Under the pieces are notes generated by a model that was not told the origin of the DNA, made no database searches, and saw only the letters and a program-made list of their open reading frames with translations. A DNA stretch of 64,000 nt from Lama glama (lineage: Eukaryota), in contig CM052816.1 of NCBI GenBank assembly GCA_028534125.1, forward strand, positions 36,706,001 to 36,770,000. Reading direction: 5' to 3'. How positions within the stretch are numbered: position 1 is the first letter of the stretch; each line of letters opens with the position of its first letter. Shown piece after piece: positions 3,335-54,670 of the stretch. The position numbers and the translations under genes are program-made.

Positions 3335-3995
3335 CTATGTGACCTTAAGCAAATTACTGTGCTTCAGTATTGTCTTTGGTAAATGGAGATAACGTAACAA
3401 TGTTATAACAATTAAATAAATTAATACATGGAATTGGCTAAGAATCAAACTTAATGCATGGATGTTGTTACCAGGTCCAAACTCATTCTGCTCACCACAT
3501 GACAGGCCAATAAATCGGGAGATGAGGTGTTGGGGCAAAGAATAATGACTTTATTCAGAAATCCAGCAGACTGAGAAGATGGCAAACTAATGTCCTGGAG
3601 AACCATCTTGCCCAAGTCAGAATTCAGGCTTCTATTATACTAAAAAGGGGTAAGGGGTGTGGTTGGTTGTTGCAAATGTCTTGGTTTGAGAATCCTTTGT
3701 TCTTGCAGCTGTCCACATAGGTTAGTCCATGATGTGCCTGTCAATCTCCAACAAGACACAAGTTATTTTCTGTTCTACAACTTTTTATCTCAATATGAAT
3801 GGAATAGTGTTATACCCTTAAAGTTCAGAGCCTTAAGAATGGGCTATCCTGTGTATTACAAAGGTGCAGAACCAGCATGACTAAGCACTGGAAACAGAAC
3901 ACAGGATTTGAGCTAAAGGAATAGATCTAATATGGAATCAGATTTGTTCTTCCCTATTACAGTGTTACTTAAAAATATCTATCATATTACTGTTA
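3335..3995 (+). mobile_element. MIR SINE split by an LTR insertion (MIR parts ~3335-3465 and ~3962-3995)
   Basis: MIR core-like 'tgtgaccttaagcaaattact...gcttcagt...taaatggagataa'; tail-like sequence resumes after the LTR. Confidence 0.6.
3466..3961 (-). mobile_element. ERV1-class solo LTR (MER41-like)
   Basis: 496 bp, TGTTA...TTACA termini, near-perfect 4-bp TSD (atgt/gtgt), AATAAA on the minus strand near 3550, TATA-like motif near 3635. Confidence 0.85.
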
Positions 3996-5419
3996 ATATC
4001 TTGTTTGAAAAAATATAATATTCCCATATAAAAATTTAAGATATTTTTAGAGAAAAAAATACTTGAAACTTTGAAGTTATCAATTTCCGGTGTATTTGGA
4101 TGCAAATCTGGCATTGGTGTACATTCATTTTTTTCCCCTTTACTTCATTCATCATTTGTCTTTTAAAAAACAAAACAACAAATGCAAAAAATATCTTTTC
4201 CAAGAATTTTTAAGTGTAAAGGATGAGAGAATGTGACCTAATATTTAGTGAGAACCTGTGTGATCCAGGTCCTGAGTGTATCTCATTTTGATATTGAAGT
4301 GTCATGAGTCTATGAATATTCCCTCCTCCTTTGTTGCAGTATTTCCCTCAGAGATGACTCACCTGCTAAAACTTTGTTGCCCTATTGATTCACTCTCACC
4401 TGGCTGTTTATCTTTTGTAGCTGTAGCTAATTAGACTCATTTGCAAACAGCATTCCAGCAATTTTTTACTTTCTATTTGAATTCCAAAAAATACTTTTTA
4501 CATCTTCATCCACTATGAGTCTATAAAATAAGGCTTGTATTACATATTAAAAGTTGTTCTTTAAGATGTTGTTTTCTTCATTAAAATGCTTTCTTGATAA
4601 TGTTGGCCTCAGAAGATGCAACATATTTTGCTTATTCAGATCCAAGAGGAAAATCAGCAATATGCTGCATGACAATTATGCCACATTAAGTTTTGTAACA
4701 TAACCTGGAATCTCTTCACTGAAACCATTGCCCATTATTAGCTGATTCATATGACAACACTAAAATATAAATCTAATATTTAAAATAAATTTTGTATGTT
4801 TTATTGCACAATTAAAATAAGGTAATCTCTGGGTTAAATTAGCTACAAAGACTTTAAATTACAATATATAAAATCAATTCATGGATGACAGATATCTTTA
4901 GCATAATACTGAAATGCTGTTTTGATTTTATCAGTAATGAATAATTTTATAATATGTTATAGAACTATGGTCTATTCAAGGAAAAAAATATGTGTAGATT
5001 GAGTAGGTCAAATTTTAAGAAAAGTTACTTTACAACTCTTTCTTTAGTCAAAAATTATTGAAATAATATCCTGCTGGACAGCTGTGTTTCCAAAAGTTAC
5101 TAATGAAAAGAATGCTGCCTGTGCACATGTTAGCACATTTTAAATCCCTTGACTTGAAGTAGTGAGAATATTTTAAAAGCATGTTCAATTTACAAAGTAA
5201 ATGCATTAAGTACTATTAAGGCTGCACTCATTTTAATTTTTCATCTTATTTGTTAATTCTCATTATATTTAATTTTTACCACTTCTCTTAGAATAAAAGT
5301 AAAGATTATAAGGCTAATTCATTTAGGAAACTTTGAAAAAAAAGAAAGTCAAAATTCAGCTGGTTTTTATTTGAATGTAATGGAAAGGATACCAAAGGAA
5401 GACTAAGAAGAAAGGCAAA

Positions 5420-23944: not shown

Positions 23945-24836
23945 TGAAAATTTCATTTTATTTTGCAACTGAAAGATTGTACCTCTTAATCTGCCTCATG
24001 TTCTTATTTCTCTCTACCTCCTCCCCTTTGGCAACCACCTGTTTGTCCTCTGTGTCTATAACATTGTTTCTGTTTTGTAATATTTGTCTATTTATTTGCT
24101 TTATTTTTTAGATTCTATGTGTAAGTGAAATCATACAGTATTTGCCTTTTTCCTTCTGGTTTATTTCACTTACATGATACCCTCTAGGTCCATGCATGTT
24201 TTCACAAATGACAAGGTTTCATTCTTTTTAATGCCTAACTAATATTCTGTTGTGTATAAACACTGCATCTTCTTTATCCATTTATCTATCAATGGGCACT
24301 TAGGTTGCTTCCATATTTTGTCTATCGTAAATAATGCTGCACTGAATATGTGTATATCTGTCATAATAAAAGTTTTTCCCCCTTTGGATAAATACCAGGA
24401 GTGGAATTGCTGGATTATATGGTAGTTCTACTTTTAATTTTTTGAAGAATCTCCATTTTGTCTTTCAGAGTGGCTGTATTGATTTACATCCCCAAACAAT
24501 GCACAAGTGTTCCCTTCTGTCCAGACTCTCACCAACTTTTATTTGCTCTTTTTTTGATAATAGCCATTCTGACAGGTATGAGGTGCTATCTCATTGTAGT
24601 TTTGATTTGCATTTCCCAGAAGATTAGTGATGTTGGACATCTCTTTATGCCTGTTGACCACCAGAATGTTTTCTTTTAAAAAATGTCTCTTCAGATTCTT
24701 TGTCTATTTTTTTTTTTGATGTTGAGTTGAATGAGTTCTTAGTTCATTTTGGTTATTAACCCCTTACTGGATACATCACTTACAAATATCTTGCCCCACT
24801 CAATAGGCTGCTTCTTCATTTTGTTGATAGTTTCCT
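23945..24836 (-). mobile_element. L1 3' region (ORF2 C-terminus plus 3' UTR, L1MA9-like)
   Basis: 'gtaagtgaaatcatacagtatttg', 'taggttgcttccatattttg', 'tagccattctgacaggtatgaggtgctatctcattgtagttttgatttgcatttc'. Confidence 0.9.
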
Positions 24837-26244: not shown

Positions 26245-29200
26245 TTTCAAATTAAAAAACTTAACTTTGTACATCAAGGAAATAGAAAAAGAAGAACAGG
26301 AAGGCCCATAGTTAGCAGCAGGAAGGAAATGACAAATATCAGAGCAGAAATAAATGAAATAGTGATTAATGTAAATTAGGAATTTGGGATTAACAAATAC
26401 ATACTACTATATATAAAATGGGTAAAAAGGACCTAGTGTTTAGCACAGGGAACTATATTCAATATCTTGTAATGACCTACAGTGGAAAAGAATCTGATGT
26501 TTCTTTGCTCTTCACTTGAAACTAACACAACATTGTAAATCAACTGTACTTCAAAAAAGTTAAGGAAAGAAATAAGCAAAATTGACACATTTTAGCTAGA
26601 CTAAGAAAATAAGAAAGGACTCAGGTAAAATTGGAAATGTAAGAGGAGACATTTCAGTTTATACCACAGAAATATAAAGGATCATAAAAACTACTGTAAA
26701 CAATTACACACCAACAATTTGGATAACCTAGAAGAAATAAGCTAATTCCTGGAAACATACAACTAAGACTAAATCCTGAAGAAATAGAAAATCTGAAGAG
26801 ATCAATAATGAGTTAGGAGATTCTCAATAATCAAAAAACCTTCCAACAAACAAAAGCCTGGCACCAGATGGTGAATTCTGCAAAATATTAAAGGAAAAAT
26901 TAATGCCATTCTTCTCAAACCCTTCTAAAAAACTGAACAGGAGAGAATACTGCAGAACCTTGATACCAAGGCCAGATAAGAACACTAAAAGAAAAGGCTA
27001 ATATCCCTGAATAATGTAAATGCTAAAATTCTCAACAGAATATTAGCAAACTCAATTCTGTAGAACTTTAAAAGGATCATATACCATGATCAAGGGGTGT
27101 TTCTTCCTAGAATACAAGGATGATTCAACATGAGCAAATCTATACATGTGATATACCACATTAGTAGAATATAAGGTAAAGTTTATATGATTATTTCAAT
27201 AAGTGCAGAAAAAGTGACAAAATTCAACATCCTTTCATGATGAAAGATCTCAACATAGGGGTTATAGAATGAATGTAGCGCATATAATAAAGGCCATATA
27301 TGACAAACCCACAGCTAACATCATCCTCAAAGGTAAAAGGTTGAAATTTTTGAGACCAAAACAAAGAAACAAACCAAAAAAACCCACCACCAACAAAAAA
27401 ACAAGACAAAGGTGCCCACTATCACCAATCCTATTAAACATGTTGCTGGAAGTCCTAGCCGGAGCACTTAGACAAGAAAGAGAAATAAATAAAATCCAAA
27501 TCAGAATGGAAGTAAAATTGTCCCTGTTTGCAGGTGATATGATCTTATATTTAAAAAACACTAAGCCTGCCCTAAAACTGTTAAAGCTAGTAAATGAATT
27601 CAGTGAAGTTGTAAGATACAAAAATCAACATCAAGATATTAGTTGCATTTTTATACACTAACAAAGAAATGTCTGAAAAAGAAAACAATCCCATTTATAA
27701 TGGCATCAAAAATAATAAAATACTTAGGAATAAATTTAACCAAAGAGATGAAAGATCTGTACACTGAAAAGTACGATTTGATCAAAGAAATTAAAGAAGA
27801 CACGAAATAAATGGAAAGTTATTTGTATTTTTGGATTGGATGAATTCATATTTTTAAAATTTATATAATAGTCAAAGTAATCTATAGATTCAGTATAATA
27901 TCTGTGAAAATTTCAATGGCATTTTTCACAGAAATAGAAAAAAAATCCTAAAACTTATATAGAACCATTATAGATTCCAAATAGCCAAAGCTGTCCTGAG
28001 AATGAAGAACAAAGCTGGAGGCATCAGACTTCCTCATTTCAGATTATATTACAAAGCTATACTAATCAAAACATTTTGGTACTGACATAAAAATAGACAG
28101 AGAGACCAATGGAACAGAATCAAACACCCAGAAGTAAATCCCATATACTGTCAGGTAATATTTGACAGATGATCCAAACATATTGAATAGGGCAATAATA
28201 GTGTCTTCAATAAATGATGTTAGGAAAACTGGACAATCATATGCAGAAGAATGAAATTGGACCCCTACTATATACCATTCACAAAAATTAACTTGAAATT
28301 GATTAAAGACTTGCACATAAGGCTCCAAACTGCAAAACACTTGGAAGATTACCAAGGGAAAAACTCCTTGGCATTGGTCTTAGCAGCAATTCTTTTGGAT
28401 ATGACACCAAAAGCATTAGCACCAGAGGAAAAAAAATAATTTGTGAGACTGAATTAAACTAAAAAATTTGGCAAAGCAAAAGAAACAACAAAATGAAAAG
28501 GCAACCTATAGAATGAAAGAAAACATTAGCAAACCATCTATCTGACAAGGGGTTAATATCCAAAATATGTAAGTCACTCTTGCAGCTCAGTAGGAAACAA
28601 ACAAACAAGCTATCTGATTAGAAAATGAGCTGACTGTACATTTTTCCAAAGAAGGCACATCAATAGCCAGCAGGTACATGAAAAGATGTTTAATATCACT
28701 AGTTATCATAACCATGGTGAGATACCACTTCACATTGGTTAAAACAGCTATTTTCAGAAAGGCGGGGTATCAAAAATTATGGCTAGGATGTGAAGAAAAT
28801 GTAACCCTTCAGCACTGTTGGTGGAATTGTAAATTGATGCAGCCAATTTGGAAAACAGTATGGAGGTTCTTCAAAAGATTAAGAATAGAACTACTGTATG
28901 ATCCAGCCATCCCATTTCTGGGTATATATGCAAGAGGAATGAAATCAGGGTCTTGAAGAGCGATCTGAACTTCCATATTTATTGTAGCATCATTCACAAT
29001 AGCCAAGATATGGAAATAACCTAAGTGTACATTGACAGGTGAATGGATACAGATGCGTTTACACAGGAATATTGTTAAGCTGTAAGGAAGAAGGAAGTCC
29101 TGCCACTTGTGATGACATGGATAGACCTTGGAGGCATTTTGCTAAAAAAATAAGTCAGACAGAGAAGGACAAATACTTTATGATCTCACTTGTATGTGGA

Positions 29201-29598: not shown

Positions 29599-30512
29599 GA
29601 ATATATTGTGCATATCTTAACTTGGTGCTTCATAAACATAGTTTCACGTGCACATTGTAGAGGATATTTGTAAAAGTAAGTATATTCTGTAAACATTATC
29701 ATGATATTAATATGTCTTTGTATTTTCCTTCAGAGTTCTCACAGTTATTTTTGCTTTGTTGCTCTTTCTCCCATATTCTCTATCTCTGTTGAATTTTGTT
29801 AATTGCATAGGCATTCTGTTTTGTGACGCAGTGTCCCCTATAGCCCTCTTATTAAAGCAAATGTAGTTTTTCTGTCTTTCGATATCCATATCAATATTTT
29901 TCAAATTTAAATGAAAATACTTTTTACCCTAGGAACACATCTATTTAGACACTCTATTTCTAATTATACACAAATGATTGGACATTTCTGTCAACATTGT
30001 AAAAGCTCAGGCTGTATTTTAATCAATAAATTAGTATTTTTACATCCATTTTCCAGAACTGCTTATGTGGTCTTTCGTATATATATATATATAAATATGC
30101 ATGTGGAAATGTTAAGATGCGTAAACACGTGGCAAACTGGGTCAGGGTTATTCATCATATGCATTTACAAAAATCAGTTTTCTTTTCATCTACAATTCTC
30201 TTAAAATTAACCTTGTTATGGTCCCAAATTTCTTAACATAAATTAAAATAAACCTCTAAATATAATAGCAGAGCAACTCTCAAAATCTAAATAATTACTT
30301 AAAAATGACTTGTATCAGTGTCTAGCTGAATATTTGTATTCCAAGAACTTAAAATTATGCCATTTAAATACTATATCACATAAAAGATACTGAAGTGATC
30401 CTAAGGAAATAATCATACTCATTTCTCAGTATCATTTTTAAAAGAACTACTGTTTTCCTATTTTAATCCAGGGATTTTTCAGTTTTTAATCCAAATAAAA
30501 AAATACCTTTTA

Positions 30513-30670
30513 TGATGGAGAAAGCAAAAGCTTCACAGATAAACAAAAGCTAAAAGATTTCAGCAACACCAAACCAGCTTTACAACAAATGTTAAAGGAC
30601 CTTCTCTAGTCATCAAGCCATGAGAAAAGAGACCAAAAAAAAGAAAGAGAAAAAAAAGAGACCTACAAAA
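30513..30670 (+). mobile_element. L1 ORF1 C-terminus and inter-ORF spacer
   Basis: Translates as DGESKSFTDKQKLKDFSNTKPALQQMLKDLL*, the ORF1p C-terminus. Confidence 0.9.
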
Positions 30671-30950
30671 GATTGCTTTGGCTATTTGGGGTATTTCGTG
30701 GTTCCTTATAAATTTTGGAATTGTTTGTTCTAGTTCTGTGAGGAACGGCCCGAGTGTTTTGATGGAGGTTGCGTTGGATGTGTGGATTGCTTTGGGTAGT
30801 GTGGCCATTTTGATGTTGTTAATACTTCCAATCCAAGAGTGCAAGAAATCTTTCCATTTCTTTGTGTCATTTTGGTTTTCAGAGTATAGGTAACCTCCTT
30901 GGTTAAGTTTATTTCTAGGTATTTTGTTATTTTTGATGTAATGGAAATGT
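30671..30950 (-). mobile_element. L1 ORF2 fragment (post-RT), antisense
   Basis: SWIGSINNIKMATLPKAIHTSNATSIKTLGPFLTELEQTIPKFIRNHEIPQIAKAI in ORF 30560..31012. Confidence 0.9.
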
Positions 30951-31004
30951 TTCTGCCAGTTATAAAATTCTGGTTTTTGAAGTGGAAAAAAAAAGTGAAT
31001 AAAG

Positions 31005-31055
31005 GGCTGCAAATGGCAAAATATCCTTTTTTATGGGGGAGTTGTTTTCCATTAT

Positions 31056-31088
<33 letters not shown>

Positions 31089-31225
31089 AAATTCCATAAT
31101 ATATATATGCTGTATCTCCATTATCTATTCGACTATTGATGTGCATTTAGGATGCTTCCATATTCTGGCAATTATAAATAATGTTGCTGTCAATAGCAGA
31201 GTGTGTGTATATTTTTCAGTTAATT
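31005..31225 (-). mobile_element. L1 3' fragment containing a (CA)n/(TA)n microsatellite
   Basis: 'gctgcaaatggcaaaat', 'tttaggatgcttccatattctggcaattataaataatg'. Confidence 0.8.
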
Positions 31226-31351
31226 CATATTTTGCAGTGGGCTTTATTCCTTTGATAACTATGTTAAGTTTAAAAAGCTAAAGCTCTAAACATCCTTAGA
31301 AACAATGAATAGTATGTATATGTAAATTTAAAAATATATATGCAGTTAAAA

Positions 31352-31875
31352 AAAAAAGATCTATCAAACCATGAAAGACATAGAAGAAACTTAAAAGATA
31401 CATTACTAAGTGAAAGAAGCCAGTCTGAAAAGGCTACAAACTGTATGATTCCAACCAAATGACATTCTGGAAAAGGCACAGCTACAGAAACAATAAAAAG
31501 ATTGTGGTTTCCAGGCGTTTGGGGAGAGGAAGGGAGGGAAGAATGAATAGATGGAGCACAAGGGATTTTTAGGGCAATGCAATTATTCTGTATGATAATA
31601 TAGTGGTGGCTATATGCTATTATGCATTTGTCAAAGCCCATAGAGTGTACAACAAGTGTGAACCCTAATGTAAACTATGGACTTTGGTTGATAATAATGT
31701 GCCCATGTTGTTTCATTGATTGTACCAAATACGCCATACTGATGAGGGATGTTGACGGTAGGGGAGTATATATGTGTGGGTAGGGAGGGCTATGTGCGAA
31801 CTCTCTGTATTTTCTGCTCAATTCTGTTGCAAACCTGAAACTGCTCTAAAAGAATAAAATCTATTAAAAAAAAAA
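31352..31875 (+). mobile_element. L1MC1/2-like 3' end with AATAAA and A-tail
   Basis: 'ctaagtgaaagaagccagtctgaaaaggctaca', 'ccctaatgtaaactatggactttgg', 'aaacctgaaactgctctaaaagaataaaatctattaaaaaa'. Confidence 0.88.
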
Positions 31876-34749
31876 GTACCTTTTAAAGACAACTGAAAAG
31901 CAAATTAGAAATTCTACTACTCAATTAGTACAAAAATACCAAGAACACCTAAATGAATTTATTTATTTCCTGATTTTGTTTAAAACTAAAACAAAAACTT
32001 ATCTTATAAAGGGGTGGCAAATTTTGCTTAATAAATATTCAGTTAGTGAAGAAATATAATTATTTCTTATATTCTAGATGTAAACTTTCTAGTAGTCTAG
32101 ATCTAAACATTCTAATCATTTCCTATTTTTCTAAGGTAGTCCAAAAGCTGAATATTTTAATTTTGATGAAAGCATTTCTACAGACTTCATTCTTCATGCA
32201 CAGTCATTCTGCTATTGTCCTGCAGTTATGTAAAATCAAAAAGACATAGTTTGTATGGCAAGTGAAATTCTGGTAGGATAACCAGCATATTTTAGAGCTT
32301 ATGCAAGATACTAATATATTTGAACACTGTCTCTAGCCATTATTTAAAATAGACCTAGAGGAAAAATTTGCCAGTATCGTAAGACTTGGGAATTTGAATA
32401 TCAAAAAATGTATTTGAATCAACAATTTAATTGAAGATAAATCTTGATCTACTCTCTTCCCCAAAATAATGTGAGATGGGAGTGTAGGTTAAGAACTTAT
32501 ATTGAGTGCTAACGAAAGAATCCATTTTTGTTCTAAAAGTGTCATGACATAATTCTGAGATGCAGTTTACTTTTATCAGTTTCTCTTGAAAGAAGCCATG
32601 ATCTTGCCTGAATAGAAAGCCAAACCAAACAAAAACAAAAACATAATCATCTAAAAACATAGATCGTATCAAATAAATAAGTTTTAGACAAATTGTAATT
32701 TGGGGGACAGACTGTCAGGCAACTAATTTCAACTTATACTTTTGACCAAACAAAACAATTATATAGGATACAAAAGTGCCAACAGCATTTTAATTACTTT
32801 TCCAAAGTTAGAGAATTCCATACTGTTTATGAATTCAGACTATTACTGATCTTAATTGTCTCCTTTAACTAATCTGATTATCTTGAGTATGCTTTGTTAA
32901 AAAAAATCCTGATATTAATGTTCAAAATACTGGAGAAAAATAAAATTTACCCTTAATATAATTTTAGTTCTCTTACTTGTATTTACTTACATGATATAAT
33001 TTAATTAGTAAAGAAATGTTTGGTCAACAGGGGCAGGTACTAAATATGTCTAATATAACTTTTAGTGCATTTGGGTAAGAAGATGAGGATTTATATAGCA
33101 AAGGAGGTCCCAGAAGTATCTGTTGTTTAATGTGACTGAAATTCACTCATATAAAGTATTATCACATTTCTGAGTCATTTCAAGACAATATTGATAGAGA
33201 CTTATCCCATTTTCCTCTTCTTGTTTTTCTTAGATCTTAATCAGACAGTATCTCAATCCAAAGTAGATATATGATGCCTATACAAATAGGATCTTCTTTT
33301 CCTTTTCACCATTGCATTATTTCCCTGTGATATGTAATGTATAGTGTTGAGATTGATGTAGTTAATAAGTTACAGAAGACAGTAAGATACCAACTTCTAT
33401 AAATGCTAGATGTGAAATGGAAATTCATACAATTGGAATCAAAGGAGGATCCTTCATGTCAGCTTTTGTTTGTCAACTAAGAAAGCTATATCCACATATG
33501 GCAATGAGTATCCCTATTAGCTCTAAGTCTTAAAAAAGGAATATAAAATATCATAGTATTTCAAAAACTATCTTCATCTGGTATTTTTTTCACTGAATTA
33601 ATTCTTATGTCTGTGCCAGATTTTGCTAACACTAAGAATTTAGCATTTACATAGGTTATACTTAAAAGTCTATTTATCAATGTGCCTATTGGAATGTATC
33701 ACTTTGGGGAAAATTTAGATATTACTTGTAAAATTATTTGTATGGCACAAAGTATCATTGGATAATTAAATCCACCTATTTTAATATTCTTGACACATTA
33801 AACAAATGCTAGCTTACTTAAGAGTATATTAAATTTTTGAATTGGTCTCATGAACTAGGGAATGTCTAAATAAAATGATATTCGGCATGCATATCTGATC
33901 TAAAGAATAACTACATGTATCAGACATTTTTTTAAAATGATTTGAAATTGGCTCAGTGAGATAATCAGTCAGTTGCCAAAGCATTGAATTAATATTCCCA
34001 AATACAAGCAGTGCATCAGACTGAATCAACATTTGTTACAAGAAGTTCGTTCAAAATCATAATTCTAGCAGAAAAAAAGATATTTTTAAAGAACCAATAG
34101 TAATTCTTGGTTCATTTTGTCTCTCTGAAGGATAGCAATGGAAAATAACTAGAACATTGGATGATGTTAGCTCAGGAGGTTCATTTGATCTAATTGATAA
34201 CTCAATATGATATTTATAAAGCTCCTACCAAAGGGTATGGCTTACTGTAGGCCTTCAATTAGAAATAGCTCCTTTACCTTCTAAGTTAAGAAGACAAAGT
34301 AGAAAAGAACCACATCAGCTGCAATTGTAAATTATAGATTCCTTTTCTACTGTTTTATAATGAGTTTATGTGGACAACAATAACTCTGTATCTGTTTCCA
34401 TATTTTCATTAACTATTTGATATGCTTTAAAAAATGAAGTTTTGTGAAACAGCCAAATCTGCTTTGATTTGGTTGATAGTTTCTTTTGACTGAGACTGCA
34501 TTAGATATCTAGATGAATTTAGGGAAGAAGTAATGTCTTAGTAAGGGTATGTCTCTCATCCATGATTATGGTATATCTGTTATAATCACATGATTAAAAT
34601 TATTTGTTTCTAATTCTAAAGATAAGCTTTACTACTTGAGTTCAATTTTTGGTGAATTTTTACAAGTTGCAGTGTATGTTCAGGACTCAGTTCATTTCTT
34701 TAAGACAGAGATATACATTAGTTACAGTTATTGATTTTTTAAATTAATA

Positions 34750-45189: not shown

Positions 45190-46300
45190 TTATGAGAGAA
45201 AACATTTGCGAATTATGTATCTATAAGGGGTTAATATTAGAATACATAAAGAACTCATACAACTCAATAGCAAAAGAACAAAAAATTTGGTTAAAAAATG
45301 GTCAGAGGAGCTGAATGGACATATTTACATATGAATAATCAACAGGTACACATGTAAGTGTGTTTAACATCACTAAGCATTAGGGAAATGCCAATCAAAA
45401 CCATAATGAGATATGACCTCACACCTGTTAGAATGACTATCATCAAAATGGTGAGAGATATGAAACATTAGTAAGGATGTGGAGAATAGGGAACCTTTGT
45501 GCACTGTTGGTAAGAATGTAAATTGATGTAGCCACCATGGAAAACAATATGGAGTTTCCTCAAAAACTAAAAATAGAACTATCATATGATCCAATGATCT
45601 CACTTCTGGGAATATATCAAAAGGAAATGAAACCACTATCTCAAAGAGATATCTGCACCCCCTATGTTTATTGCAACATTATTTACAAGACATAAGACAT
45701 TTAAGCAAACTAAATGTTCATGAATGGATGAATGGATAAAGAAAATATGAGATATATATATGAATATATATATGTGTATGTGTACAGTAGAATATTTTCA
45801 ACCATAAAAAGAAGGAAATCTTGCCATTTGTGACAATGTGGATGGACCCTGAGAACATTATGCTAAATGAAATGTCAGACATATTACTATACGCTATCAC
45901 TTATCTGTGGAATCTTAAAAAAAAAAAGGAAAACAACAACAAACTCTTAGAAAGAGAGAACAGGTTGATCATTGCCATAAATGGGAGTTAAGGGGTGGGG
46001 AAATGGGCGGGGGTGGTCAAAAGGTACAAACTTCCAGTTATAAGATAAGTAAGGCCTGTGGATGTAATGCACAGCAGGGTGACCATAGTTAACAACACTT
46101 TATTGTATATTTGAAACTTGCTAAGGGAGTGATCTTAAAAATGTTCTCTTGGCAAGAAAAAACTGTAACTCTGTGAAGTGATGATGTTAACTAAACTTGT
46201 GCTAATCATTTCACAATGCATACATATATTAAATTATTTTTGTACACTTTAAATGAGTACAATATTACATGTCAATTATATCTCAGTAAAACTAGAAAAC
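45190..46300 (+). mobile_element. L1 3' region (L1MA9-like)
   Basis: 'catcactaagcattagggaaatgccaatcaaaaccataatgagata', 'aatagaactatcatatgatcca', ending 'tgtcaattatatctcagtaaaact'. Confidence 0.92.
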
Positions 46301-50584: not shown

Positions 50585-51347
50585 AAAGTAAATTAGTACA
50601 GCCATTATAGAAAGCAGTACGGAAGTTCCTCAAAAAATTAAACACAAAGCTACCTTATGTTTCAACAATTCCATTTCTGGATATTTAACCCAAGGAAATG
50701 AAATCACTATCTTGAAGAGATATCTGCATCCCATTTTTGTTACAGCATTACTCACAATAGCCAAAGCATGGAAACAATCTAAGTATCCTTGGATGAATGA
50801 ATAAAGAAAATGTGGTATATATATACCCAATGGAACATTTTCAGCCGTAAAAAAAGTAGGAAATCGTGTCATTTGTGATAACATTGATGAACCTGGAGGA
50901 CATTAGTGAATCAGGCACACAAAGACATGTATACTTTATGATCTCTCTTCTATGTGGAATCTAAAAAAGTCGAACATAAAATCGGAGTGTACAATGGTGG
51001 TTGCCAGGGTTTGGGGGATGAAAAAAATAGCAAGTTATTGATTACATGGGACAAATTTTCAGTTACCAGATGAATAAATTCTGGGGATCTAATGCATAGT
51101 ATGGTGATTATAGGTAATACTTAATTGTATACTTGAAATTTGGTAAGACAGTAGTAGATCTTAAGTTTTCTCACCACAAAAATAAATATAGCTATGTGAC
51201 ATGATGAATATAATAACTTGATTGTGGTAAGCATTTCACAATGCTTATGCATATTAAATCATCACATTATACCCCTTAATAATCACATTGTACAACCGAA
51301 ATATAAACCATTTTTATTTGCCAATTATACTTTAATAAATCTGGAAA
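50585..51347 (+). mobile_element. L1 3' end (L1MA8/9-like)
   Basis: 'gtaaattagtacagccattatagaaagcagtacggaagttcctcaaaaaattaaa' through 'ccaattatactttaataaatctggaaa'. Confidence 0.92.
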
Positions 51348-52019: not shown

Positions 52020-54670
52020 TGTTGTTAGATTAATATACAGAATAGTACATTAAAGCACAAGCAAATACATAGAAATAACTATACAGTTTAAAGAATAATT
52101 ATGAAGTAAGCACTTGAGCAGACAAGATTTCCTCGTGGTGAAGAGAGAACACTTGCCCAGATGCCCAAAGCCCTACAGAAAGACCATAACCACCTCCATC
52201 AATCCTATGACTAACCAGTCTCCTGACTTGTTTGAAAATTGTTTAAGTGCTTTGCTTTTAACTTTTAAAAATTGATGTGTAAACTATTTAAAATAATTTC
52301 AATAGTTTTAATGAACTATAACAATAATATTGAACTATATGTATTTGCTGTCTCTTCTTTCCTAAATACTATTTGTGGATTTTCTGCATTTTGCATATAA
52401 CCACAATTAATTCATTTTTTGTTGCTATAAAGTGCTATAAACAATTCATTTACTGATTTTGATGTTGAGGGACCTTTGGGTTATTTTAAGCATTTGCTCA
52501 TGCAAGGCTGCCATCATCACTCTTGTACATGTCTCTTTGTTCACATAAGCACAGATTTCCCCAGGGAATCAATCCAAGAATGGAATTGCTAGTCATAGGC
52601 TAACCATATCTTCAACTTTTCTAATACCATCTACATTTTTCCCAAGTCATTATTCCAATTAAAATTCTACCAGAAGTTCCTGTGCCTCCACTTCTTCACC
52701 AACATTTTGTATTGACAAACTTCCTTCACCCCCTCCATTCTGGTGTGTATGTATCAGTATTTCTCTGTGGTTTTAATTACAGTTTCCCCATTACCAATTA
52801 GGTTAAGCATTATTTAATATTTTTATTTATTGGCCATCATTTGTAGTTCCTCTTTTGTAAAGAGCCTGTTCAAATTAACTTGCTCATTTTGGTGGTGGAT
52901 TTTGTTGTTGTTTATCGAATCCTTGGAAGGTCTCTCTTTATTTTTTGTTTTACTTTTATTTATTTTTTAATTGAAGTATAGTTGATTTACAAAGTTGTGT
53001 TTCAGGTGTAAGGCAAAGTGATTCAGTCATCTATACATACATACTTATGTATATATATTCTTTTTCAGATTCTTCTCCATTATAGGCTGTTGCAAGATAT
53101 TGAATATAGTTCCCTGTGCTATACAGTAGGTCCTTGTTGTTTATCTATTTCATGTATAGTAGTGTGTATATGTTAATCATAAACTCCAAATTTATCCCTC
53201 CTGCATCTTTCCCCTTTGGTAACCATCTTTTGTTTTTTATGTCTGTGAGTCTATTTCTAGTTTGTAAATAAGGACATTTGTATCTTTTTTAAAAATTTCA
53301 GATATAAGTGATATATGATATTTTTCTCTGTCTGACTTACTTCACTTAATATGATGATCTTTAGATCCATCCATCTTGCTGCAAGTGGCATTATTTCATT
53401 CTTTTTAATGGCTGAGTAATATTCCATTGTGCATATATACCACATCTTCTTTATCTATTTATCTGGGACATTTAGGTTGCTTCCATGTCTTGGCTATTGT
53501 AAATAGTGCTGCTATAAACATTGGGTTGCATGTATCTTTTTGAGTTGGGGTTTTCTCCCGATTTATGTCCAAAAGTGAGATTGCTGGATCATATGGTAAC
53601 TCATTTTTTTTTGTTTTTTAAGGAACCCCGTCATTCCATTCTCCATAGTGACTGTGCCAATTTATATTCCCAGCAACAGTGTGGGAGGATTTCCTGTTCT
53701 CCCCACCCTTTCCAGCATTTATTATTTGTGGACTTTTTAATGATGGCCATTCTGACTGGTGTGAGGTAATACCTCACTGTAGTTTGGACTTGCATTTCTC
53801 TAATTGTTAGAGATGTTGAGGATCTTTTCATGTGCCTGTTGACCAACAGTGTTTCTTCTTTGAAATAATGTCTATTTAGGTCTTCTACCCATTTTTTTTA
53901 TTGGGTTTTTAGTTTTCTAGATATTAAGCTGTATGAGCTCTTTATATATTCTGGATACTAAGATACTAGGTTAAATTTACAGCAAATATCTTTTTCCAAT
54001 ATGCAGTGAATATTTTACTTTCTTTTACTTTATTGTAAATATATATGATATATATTTTATACTTTGTATTTTAATGCCATTCAGCTTAATTTTTTAGGTT
54101 AGTGCTTTTTACTTCATTTTAGAAGTCTCCAAGTATTTGGAAAACATGAAGATAATGTGTGTTACCTTATTTCTCTTTATAGTTTTGTTCTGTAATAATT
54201 CATCAAAAAATCCTGTTCTTTTCCACCAATATGCAGTTCTAACTATGTAAAATATCAAGTATTCATGTATGTATGGTTTGTTTAAAGTTCATTTTTTCTG
54301 CTTAGTTGACATTAATTTACCATTATGTCACTTTGACACTATTTTTATTACTATAGGTTTATAATATTTTACTAACAGTTAAGTTAAATTCCCACAAATC
54401 AATCTATTCTTTTTCTTCAAAATTTTATTGGATAGTCTTGGCTCACACATTTTAAAATTCATATTAACTTTTACGAAATTTGTGAATTCTTGTAGAGATG
54501 GCTTTGAATCTATAGATATTTTCATGAAAATGACATTAAAATATTGAATTTTGAATCACTGAACATAATGTATCTCTCCATTTATTTTGGCTTTTTAAAT
54601 GTCTCTCATTAAAATTTTATATATGAAACTTTCATACATTCATTAAATCTATTTTGAAATGACTTTTGTT
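52020..54670 (-). mobile_element. Old L1M element, interrupted by a younger L1 at ~52942-53940
   Basis: 'tttaaagaataattatgaag', 'gaatggaattgctagtcatagg', 'tcttcaccaacattttgtattg'; degraded ORF2 continues after 53945. Confidence 0.75.
52942..53940 (-). mobile_element. Younger L1 3' kilobase (ORF2 C-terminus plus 3' UTR)
   Basis: ORFs MWYICTMEYYSAIKKNEIMPLAARWMDL and [36 protein letters not shown]-rich tail at the left end. Confidence 0.95.

What the first reader, a model, noticed from the sequence alone, without database searches (positions are those of the whole stretch)
30715..30815. Clustered A-to-G changes in the antisense L1 segment: possible fossil of ADAR hyper-editing
Seen: the ORF2 frame reads MATLPKAIHTSNATSIKTLGPFLTELEQTIPKF. 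The mammalian ORF2p consensus, recalled from memory, is approximately [33 protein letters not shown]. I>T, Y>H, F>S, F>L, L>P and silent AAT>AAC and TTT>TTC are all T>C on the L1 strand, meaning roughly ten A>G changes on the + strand in ~100 nt, several in TAG>TGG context. The stretch is G-rich and contains CpGs, the opposite of the decay seen elsewhere in the window. Known: ADAR A-to-I editing of dsRNA is copied as A>G and favours UAG. Inference: the + strand RNA (the strand carrying the poly(A) of the retrocopy) was edited where its antisense L1 part paired with sense L1 RNA, and was then reverse-transcribed into the germline. Some non-A>G differences are also present.
Basis: partly seen in the sequence, partly recalled or inferred. 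Interest (0 to 1): 0.75.

Follow-up and report, generated by a model that had tools for sequence, protein, structure and literature searches.

The report
Inherited A-to-G cluster in half-L1 repeat
The G-rich stretch is real, but it was inherited rather than made in this copy: every sampled member of an abundant ORF1-only L1-derived repeat family carries the same one-strand A-to-G cluster, which looks like RNA editing of the family's founder.

Summary
The Gs are not private to this insertion.

- **What the element is.** Window 30513-31875 is a 5'-truncated copy, with poly(A) and a target-site duplication, of an abundant rearranged L1 derivative. It has ORF1, no reverse transcriptase, and two antisense ORF2 pieces, so it is HAL1-like.
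- **This copy was not edited.** Against the majority of 55 other copies it has 72 private changes with a symmetric spectrum (A>G 11, T>C 11). Only 2 A>G fall in 30715-30815.
- **The family founder carries the signal.** I compared the family majority with canonical L1 ORF2 of the same genome and polarised the differences with older L1 copies. The family then has 11 derived + strand A>G against 1 T>C (Fisher 9e-6). Nine of them hit 9 of 21 adenosines in 30715-30820, and T>C there is 0 of 39.
- **The signal is fixed and local.** All 49 family rows carry it. The second antisense piece shows no such bias, and no cis duplex partner was found.

Best reading: an ADAR-type hyper-editing event on a founder RNA, inherited by the whole family (about 0.55). 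This is a new member of a known kind.

The parts
30504..30512 (+). 5' copy of the target-site duplication TACCTTTTA, preceded by an A-run
   Evidence: Read directly. The same 9 bases follow the poly(A) at 31877-31885.
30513..31875 (+). One 5'-truncated copy of an abundant rearranged, ORF1-only L1 derivative (HAL1-like family)
   Evidence: The 29 other loci fetched match it colinearly, and so do the 29 fetched, where not 5'-truncated. Other copies run at least 1355 bases further 5' with an ORF1 frame. The window copy has 72 private substitutions in 1363 bases against the majority of 55 copies.
30513..30609 (+). Sense C-terminal end of L1 ORF1, with its stop codon TAG at 30607-30609
   Evidence: The + frame 30499..30609 reads ...KSFTDKQKLKDFSNTKPALQQMLKDLL*. 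The same end closes a 247-aa ORF1 in family copy L007, which matches all three Pfam L1 ORF1 domains.
30610..30661 (+). Spacer after ORF1, A/G-rich, running up to the junction with the antisense ORF2 piece
   Evidence: Conserved in all family copies. The alignment to canonical L1 ends at about 30662.
30662..30995 (-). S1: an ORF2 piece lying antisense to the element's own poly(A) strand (about human ORF2p 770-861)
   Evidence: phmmer to human ORF2p 790-861, E 2e-14. blastn and tblastx match canonical L1 loci just 3' of their RT domain.
30715..30820 (+). Family-wide cluster of A>G changes on the + strand
   Evidence: 9 of 21 ancestral adenosines are changed, T>C is 0 of 39, and only 2 other derived changes occur. 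13 A>G are seen against the young canonical majority. The state is fixed in 49 of 49 family rows.
31000..31345 (-). S2: a second antisense ORF2 piece (about human ORF2p 1175-1217 and flanks), interrupted by a (CA)n/(TA)n run at about 31058-31090
   Evidence: tblastx and blastn match canonical L1 loci about 1 kb 3' of S1 in the same antisense orientation. There is a weak phmmer match to human ORF2p 1175-1217, E 0.04. It shows no A>G bias. Its outer limits are approximate, because the alignment beyond 31233 is poor.
31361..31865 (+). Sense 3' tail, with AATAAA at 31853-31858
   Evidence: Read directly and colinear in the family copies. Its reading as the ORF2 C-terminus plus 3'UTR is mine from recalled L1 motifs. 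No tool match supports it.
31866..31875 (+). Poly(A) tail
   Evidence: Read directly.
31877..31885 (+). 3' copy of the target-site duplication TACCTTTTA
   Evidence: Read directly.

Best explanation
**What it is.** Window 30513-31875 is an ordinary L1-mobilised insertion, with a poly(A) tail, AATAAA and a 9-base target-site duplication, truncated at its 5' end inside ORF1. It belongs to an abundant non-autonomous L1 derivative. That family keeps ORF1, has lost the reverse transcriptase, and carries two ORF2 fragments (S1, S2) antisense to its own transcript.

**Where the Gs came from.** The G-rich stretch at 30715-30820 was inherited from the family's progenitor and was not created in this copy.

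**How they arose (inferred).** At some point before the common ancestor of the sampled copies, a family RNA, or the RNA from which S1 was captured, formed double-stranded RNA over about 100-250 nt of S1. An ADAR-type adenosine deaminase changed roughly 40% of the adenosines there. L1 reverse transcriptase copied the inosines as G. The resulting insertion became a master copy, and its descendants all carry the changes.

**Shown versus inferred.** Shown: the family membership, the family-wide fixation, the polarity, the strand asymmetry and the clustering. Inferred: that the enzyme was ADAR, what the duplex partner was, and that it was one event rather than several.
For: **Family membership.**
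- All 40 scored own-genome matches to S1 other than the window itself and one 44-base fragment are 90-92% identical.
- The matches are colinear over 30513-31875.
- ORF1 lies upstream in longer copies, and it carries all three Pfam L1 ORF1 domains.
- The target-site duplication and poly(A) are read directly.

**Not private to this copy.**
- The window has 72 private changes: A>G 11, T>C 11, G>A 15, C>T 14. Only 2 A>G fall in the interval.

**Founder-level signal.**
- Family majority (48 copies) against young canonical majority: 62 differences in 272 well-supported columns, with + strand A>G 20, T>C 5, G>A 6, C>T 7.
- The A>G excess holds against each of the 7 non-family single-copy references: 6-28 A>G against 2-8 T>C.
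- Polarised with older L1 copies: 24 family-derived changes, of which A>G is 11 of 49 adenosines and T>C is 1 of 110 thymines, Fisher 9e-6.
- Clustering: 9 of 21 adenosines inside 30715-30820 against 2 of 28 outside, p 0.005. T>C inside is 0 of 39, p 2e-5.
- Human ORF2p has I, Y, F, I, F, L, I where the family has the T>C-derived residues.
- 10 of the 11 edited sites have U or A as 5' neighbour.

**Fixation.** The number of canonical-type letters per family row over the 11 sites is 0 in 28 rows, 1 in 19 and 2 in 2.
Against: - No complementary partner for the cluster exists in the element or in 1.35 kb upstream of four longer copies. Duplex energies are no better than shuffled controls.
- S2 is equally antisense to L1 and shows no bias: A>G 4 of 50 against T>C 6 of 91, and 0 of 18 against 3 of 46 in its well-aligned core. 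Simple pairing with sense L1 RNA in trans would predict bias there too.
- The ADAR neighbour preferences are not significant with 11 sites. 5' G is 1 of 11 against 5 of 35 (p 1.0). 3' G is 2 of 11 against 6 of 36 (p 1.0). 5' G-or-C is 1 of 11 against 14 of 35 (p 0.07).
- 28 of the 62 differences could not be polarised.
- Aside from A>G, S1 is still about 15% different from canonical L1, so the family has a long separate history in which other processes could have acted.
- No sense-strand control was possible. Canonical ORF1 and 3' ends were not obtainable or aligned too poorly.
Confidence: 0.55

Rival explanations
1. The RNA that gave rise to this particular insertion was hyper-edited by ADAR and reverse-transcribed, so the Gs are private to window 30715-30815.
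For: The interval is G-rich, and it differs from canonical L1 mainly by + strand A>G.
Against: The Gs are present in 49 of 49 family rows. Against the family majority the window has only 6 changes in the interval, 2 of them A>G. Over the whole element A>G equals T>C at 11 each.
Confidence: 0.02
2. No editing took place. S1 was taken from an unsampled or extinct L1 lineage, or it drifted neutrally in the master lineage, and the A>G excess is a chance or sampling effect of using few references.
For: The family is deeply diverged from all sampled L1: 77% identity in S1 and about 58-70% in S2. At about a dozen sites it agrees with the oldest copies rather than the intermediate ones. 28 differences are ambiguous. 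Only 4 informative outgroup copies were available.
Against: The strand asymmetry is 11 against 1 with twice as many T as A sites, p 9e-6. It is seen against every non-family reference. At the 11 sites nearly every canonical and older copy has T: each of the 19 canonical copies and of the 3 older copies covering the cluster shows at most one private non-T letter. The affected codons encode residues shared with human ORF2p. Neutral drift predicts C>T and G>A to dominate, as in the window's own private changes.
Confidence: 0.2
3. A strand-specific error process other than ADAR caused the changes. One candidate is low-fidelity reverse transcription during the rearrangement that created S1, with dC misincorporated opposite rA under a nucleotide-pool imbalance or at a template switch. 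Another is strong transcription-coupled A>G asymmetry at the master locus.
For: The changes lie in a segment created by an abnormal reverse-transcription event, an inverted fragment next to a junction. No dsRNA partner was found. The ADAR neighbour motif is not significant.
Against: S2 is also a product of rearrangement and part of the same transcript, yet it lacks the bias. Transcription-coupled asymmetry is, from established knowledge, a modest effect spread over whole transcripts, not 9 of 21 adenosines in about 100 nt. That 10 of 11 sites have 5' U or A fits ADAR.
Confidence: 0.15
4. GC-biased gene conversion at a donor or master locus enriched G and C.
For: The stretch is locally GC-richer than its surroundings.
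Against: Gene conversion is strand-symmetric. Here A>G is 11 of 49 against T>C 1 of 110, and 9 of 21 against 0 of 39 in the cluster.
Confidence: 0.02

Closest known systems
HAL1 ('half-L1') non-autonomous L1 derivatives
   Same: It encodes only ORF1p, lacks ORF2/RT, and is mobilised with poly(A) and a target-site duplication in many copies. HAL1 is described as a non-autonomous L1 derivative encoding only ORF1p that arose independently several times in mammals (PMC5753468, passage read). HAL1 is also listed among canine L1 subfamilies (PMC13756887, passage read).
   Different: This family carries two ORF2 fragments in antisense orientation between ORF1 and the 3' tail. Whether it corresponds to a named Repbase or Dfam entry could not be checked, because neither database is on hand and Bao & Jurka 2010 is not held.
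ADAR hyper-editing of long dsRNA (inverted Alu pairs, viral RNAs)
   Same: The A>G changes are clustered, on one strand only, and affect about 40% of adenosines over about 100 nt, with a 5' U or A neighbour at 10 of 11 sites. ADAR's dsRNA requirement and its preference for inverted repeats are summarised in PMC4982230 (passages read).
   Different: Here the record is genomic and inherited by a whole repeat family rather than seen in transcripts. No duplex partner is preserved, and the neighbour preferences are not significant.
Fossil APOBEC3 G>A editing of retrotransposons (Carmi 2011; Knisbacher & Levanon 2016, PMC4866542)
   Same: The logic is the same: a unidirectional, strand-biased, clustered transition pattern, polarised with a consensus, is read as a deaminase footprint fixed in the genome (methods passage read).
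   Different: The direction and enzyme differ: A>G on the RNA-sense strand rather than G>A from minus-strand DNA deamination. A review with RNA editing of retrotransposons in its title (Knisbacher & Levanon 2015) was seen only as a citation. From recall it discusses genomic A>G clusters, but I did not read it.
L1 5' inversions by twin priming
   Same: An antisense L1 segment sits directly 5' of a sense 3' end with poly(A). As I read it, S2 and the tail abut at neighbouring ORF2 positions.
   Different: This is recalled knowledge and my own reading. The tail could not be aligned to canonical L1. S1 lies 5' of S2 in the wrong order for a single twin-priming event, and the whole arrangement is a family trait rather than a one-off.

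Membership tests
HAL1-type (ORF1-only) L1 derivative | Encodes L1 ORF1p | tested here: met
   The 247-aa frame of family copy L007 matches PF17489, PF02994 and PF17490 above their cut-offs. ORF1 frames of 96-247 aa occur in the 4 copies inspected. The window copy keeps only the last 32 codons.
HAL1-type (ORF1-only) L1 derivative | Lacks ORF2 / reverse transcriptase | tested here: met
   Only about 1.26 kb lies between the ORF1 stop and the poly(A). It consists of S1, S2 and the tail, and is colinear in 55 copies. The ORF2 pieces are antisense.
HAL1-type (ORF1-only) L1 derivative | Amplified by L1-type retrotransposition | tested here: met
   AATAAA, poly(A) and a 9-base target-site duplication are present. 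5' truncations occur at varied points in 9 of 29 loci. The first look found 3870-4075 candidates, and all 40 scored were 88-92% identical.
HAL1-type (ORF1-only) L1 derivative | Identity with a named Repbase/Dfam HAL1 entry | not testable with these tools
   No Dfam or Repbase library is on hand, and Bao & Jurka 2010 is not held.
ADAR hyper-editing footprint | A>G on one strand only, with ancestral A established | tested here: met
   A>G is 11 of 49 against T>C 1 of 110 after polarisation with older L1 copies. The result is consistent against every non-family reference and with human ORF2p residues.
ADAR hyper-editing footprint | Clustering of the edited sites | tested here: met
   9 of 21 adenosines changed in 30715-30820 against 2 of 28 elsewhere in S1, p 0.005.
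ADAR hyper-editing footprint | 5' neighbour G depleted and 3' neighbour G enriched | tested here: inconclusive
   5' G is 1 of 11 against 5 of 35 (p 1.0). 5' G-or-C is 1 of 11 against 14 of 35 (p 0.07). 3' G is 2 of 11 against 6 of 36 (p 1.0).
ADAR hyper-editing footprint | Long double-stranded RNA partner | tested here: not met
   No inverted repeat covers the cluster in the element or in two longer copies. Duplex energies with the rest of the element and with four upstream regions are no better than shuffles. A trans partner (sense L1 RNA) or a lost cis partner cannot be tested.
ADAR hyper-editing footprint | Bias absent from control sequence of the same element | tested here: met
   S2 shows A>G 4 of 50 against T>C 6 of 91. 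The window's private changes are symmetric. A sense-strand control (ORF1, tail) could not be made.

The most novel reading that the evidence does not exclude
The whole family, with thousands of copies, descends from one ADAR-hyper-edited RNA molecule, and the editing was not merely tolerated but favoured. By converting about 40% of the adenosines in its antisense ORF2 segment, the parasite-of-L1 weakened pairing with sense L1 RNA. It thereby escaped dsRNA-triggered silencing or sensing, which allowed that edited copy to become the successful master.
Probability: 0.1. Interest if true: 0.7.

Novelty: new member of a known kind. Interest (0 to 1): 0.4.

Why it matters
[quoted passage not shown] If the reading here holds, this family is a concrete case. 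An RNA-level A-to-I event would have been written into the germline and then multiplied across a genome by retrotransposition.

It also gives a practical caution. A>G clusters seen against a generic L1 consensus can be subfamily traits, so a copy must be compared with its own family before an editing event is assigned to it.

For the window itself the outcome is ordinary: one more decayed copy of an interspersed repeat.

Tried and rejected
- **Fetching more canonical L1.** The loci of a search with an intermediate-age L1 copy could not be cut out. Polarisation therefore rests on copies already held.\n- **Sense-part controls.** The family ORF1 end, ORF1 body and tail found no usable canonical counterpart in held sequence. 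There were either no hits or only 60-68% matches. The tail's start does not align to canonical ORF2 ends better than shuffles. That is not proof of absence. Bao & Jurka 2010 and Knisbacher & Levanon 2015 were not readable.\n- **GC-biased gene conversion.** Rejected on the strand asymmetry.

Full report
**Observation.** Its central 72 residues align to human L1 ORF2p 790-861 with E 2e-14. The interval 30715-30815 is 37% G, against 16% for the whole window, and holds three CpGs.

**What the element is.** The L1-like stretch is not an isolated fragment.
- On the + strand, 30499-30609 reads the C-terminal end of L1 ORF1 and its stop codon.
- AATAAA (31853-31858) and a poly(A) tail (31866-31875) close the element.
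- The nine bases TACCTTTTA flank it on both sides, at 30504-30512 and 31877-31885.

A search of the window's own genome with 30660-30960 returned 40 further scored matches out of 4075 first-look candidates. Thirty-nine are 90-92% identical and one is a 44-base fragment. The 29 loci fetched match the window over 30513 to about 31875, colinearly apart from a few truncated or interrupted copies. A second search with 31090-31480 gave 29 more loci. All have the same arrangement, and 9 are 5'-truncated at different points.

Copies that are not truncated continue at least 1355 bases upstream and carry ORF1 frames. The 247-aa frame of copy L007 matches all three Pfam L1 ORF1 domains. No reverse-transcriptase region lies between ORF1 and the tail.

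What lies there instead is two ORF2 fragments antisense to the element's own poly(A) strand:
- S1 spans 30662 to about 30995.
- S2 spans about 31000-31345. It matches canonical L1 about 1 kb 3' of S1 and human ORF2p 1175-1217 weakly, E 0.04.

The element is thus a 5'-truncated member of an abundant, rearranged, ORF1-only L1 derivative. That matches the published description of HAL1 elements as non-autonomous L1 derivatives encoding only ORF1p (PMC5753468, passage read). I read the last 500 bases as the ORF2 end plus 3'UTR in sense, from recalled L1 motifs. No tool match supports that reading.

**Is the cluster private to this copy?** It is not.
- Against 29 copies, the window differs from the majority at 7 positions in 30715-30815, and only 30756 and 30815 are A>G.
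- Of 58 family loci, 3 were exact assembly duplicates and were dropped, leaving 55 non-redundant copies. Against these the window has 72 private substitutions in 1363 bases.
- The spectrum of those 72 is symmetric: G>A 15, C>T 14, A>G 11, T>C 11. Six fall in the interval, two of them A>G.
- One of the three CpGs is a private change.

They are.

**Is there still an A>G signal one level up?** I obtained canonical L1 from the same genome by searching with Pfam RVT_1. That search scored 150 of 16301 candidates, and I fetched 30 loci. Nineteen of the 30 had an S1 match of at least 250 bases.
- I aligned 48 family copies plus the window with these 19. Family rows with fewer than 300 bases of S1 were left out.
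- There are 272 columns in which both majorities are supported by at least 70% of rows, and 62 of them differ.
- On the element's + strand the differences are A>G 20, T>C 5, G>A 6, C>T 7 and 24 transversions.
- Within 30715-30820, 13 of the 22 differences are A>G and none is T>C.

**Polarity.** The held sequence contains older L1 copies of S1: L035, L073:233-572, window 27684-28009 and L019:3061-3300. I used 15 young copies as the canonical majority. L039, L045 and L035 were listed separately, and L058 was left out. A change counted as family-derived only if none of the four older copies shared the family state and at least two shared the canonical state.
- This gives 210 unchanged columns, 24 family-derived changes, 10 canonical-lineage changes and 28 ambiguous ones.
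- Of the 24 family-derived changes, 11 are + strand A>G (of 49 ancestral adenosines) and 1 is T>C (of 110 thymines), Fisher 9e-6.
- Nine of the 11 lie in 30715-30820, where 9 of 21 adenosines changed, 0 of 39 thymines changed to C, and only two other derived changes occurred.
- Outside the cluster, 2 of 28 adenosines changed (p 0.005 for the contrast).
- The A>G excess appears against every non-family single reference as well: 6-28 A>G against 2-8 T>C.
- The affected codons encode I, Y, F, I, F and I in canonical L1, and human ORF2p has the same residues at those positions in the alignment.
- Across the 49 family rows, the number of canonical-type letters at the 11 sites is 0 in 28 rows, 1 in 19 and 2 in 2. 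Nearly all of the 19 canonical and 3 older copies that cover the cluster have T, with at most one private non-T letter per copy.

**Controls and evidence against.**
- S2 is part of the same transcript and equally antisense to L1, yet it shows no bias. Family-derived A>G is 4 of 50 against T>C 6 of 91, and 0 of 18 against 3 of 46 in the part that BLAST aligns well. The outer third of S2 aligns poorly (117 differences in 281 columns), so those numbers are rough.
- No inverted repeat or favourable duplex pairs the cluster with any other part of the element or with the 1.35 kb upstream of four longer copies. Energies are no better than for shuffled sequence.
- ADAR's neighbour preferences cannot be established with 11 sites. 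Ten have U or A on the 5' side and one has G, but the contrasts are not significant. A 3' G is found at 2 of 11 sites.
- A control on the sense parts of the element could not be made. More genome sequence could not be fetched, and the few canonical ORF1 or 3'-end matches in held sequence are only 60-68% identical.

**Interpretation.** The data show four things. The window holds an ordinary copy of a HAL1-like repeat. The G-rich stretch is a family trait. The trait is derived relative to L1 ORF2. And it consists largely of clustered A>G changes on the transcribed strand only.
- Strand-symmetric processes such as GC-biased conversion or plain drift do not give 11 against 1.
- Cytidine deaminases give the wrong direction.
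- Transcription-coupled asymmetry is, from general knowledge, weak and not local.
- Change of roughly 40% of adenosines over about 100 nt is what promiscuous ADAR editing of long dsRNA produces (general knowledge; the dsRNA requirement is summarised in PMC4982230).

I therefore favour, at about 0.55, an editing event on a founder RNA that was reverse-transcribed and became a master copy. Alternatively, S1 may have been captured from an already edited antisense L1 RNA, which would explain why S2 is unaffected. The remaining probability goes mainly to an unsampled parental lineage or drift (0.2) and to a non-ADAR strand-specific error at the rearrangement (0.15).

**Comparison with what is known.** HAL1 families and deaminase footprints in retroelements are both established. 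The method used here (unidirectional, strand-biased, clustered, polarised by consensus) mirrors that used for APOBEC footprints (PMC4866542, methods passage). A 2016 review says a role of ADAR editing in retroelement subfamily evolution had not been determined (PMC4982230). A 2015 review with RNA editing of retrotransposons in its title was seen only as a citation. Five literature searches found no description of this family or of a family-wide ADAR footprint in an L1 derivative. I rate it a new member of a known kind. For the window itself the finding is ordinary, and at the family level it is moderately interesting.

Noticed in passing
window 27684-28009 (+): An older L1 ORF2 fragment covers the same ORF2 region as S1 in sense orientation. 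It is 72% identical to a young canonical copy. I used it as an outgroup.
   Followed up: partly
window 53378-53546, 24205-24348, 45609-45830, 50708-50875, 28976-29049: Further old L1 ORF2 C-terminal fragments, 64-76% identical to the family's S2. Four of them served as outgroups for S2.
   Followed up: partly
window 31058-31090: A (CA)n/(TA)n microsatellite sits inside S2 of the element. Its length varies among family copies, and most lack the extra CACA units of the window copy.
   Followed up: no
L008/L009 (G000:C145726), L088/L089 (G000:C106841), L014/L083: L008/L009 are 100% identical over the compared flank, and L088/L089 were dropped as duplicates. Each pair lies in opposite orientation on one unplaced contig, which suggests assembly duplications or palindromic contigs. 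L014 and L083 are the same locus fetched twice.
   Followed up: no
L090:750-1112: A second, more diverged copy (about 77-79%) carries the family-specific S1/S2 junction beside a younger family copy. It has the family-type letter at the four A>G sites it covers. That hints at older subfamilies that already carried at least part of the signal.
   Followed up: partly
own genome, contig C37: C37 contributes a disproportionate share of the best RVT_1 and family matches, as expected of an L1-rich sex chromosome.
   Followed up: no
window 30560-31000: Public runs under at least five different coded organism labels each hold about half of the sampled 31-mers of this stretch. The insertion, or very close paralogues, may be shared among related species.
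   Followed up: no
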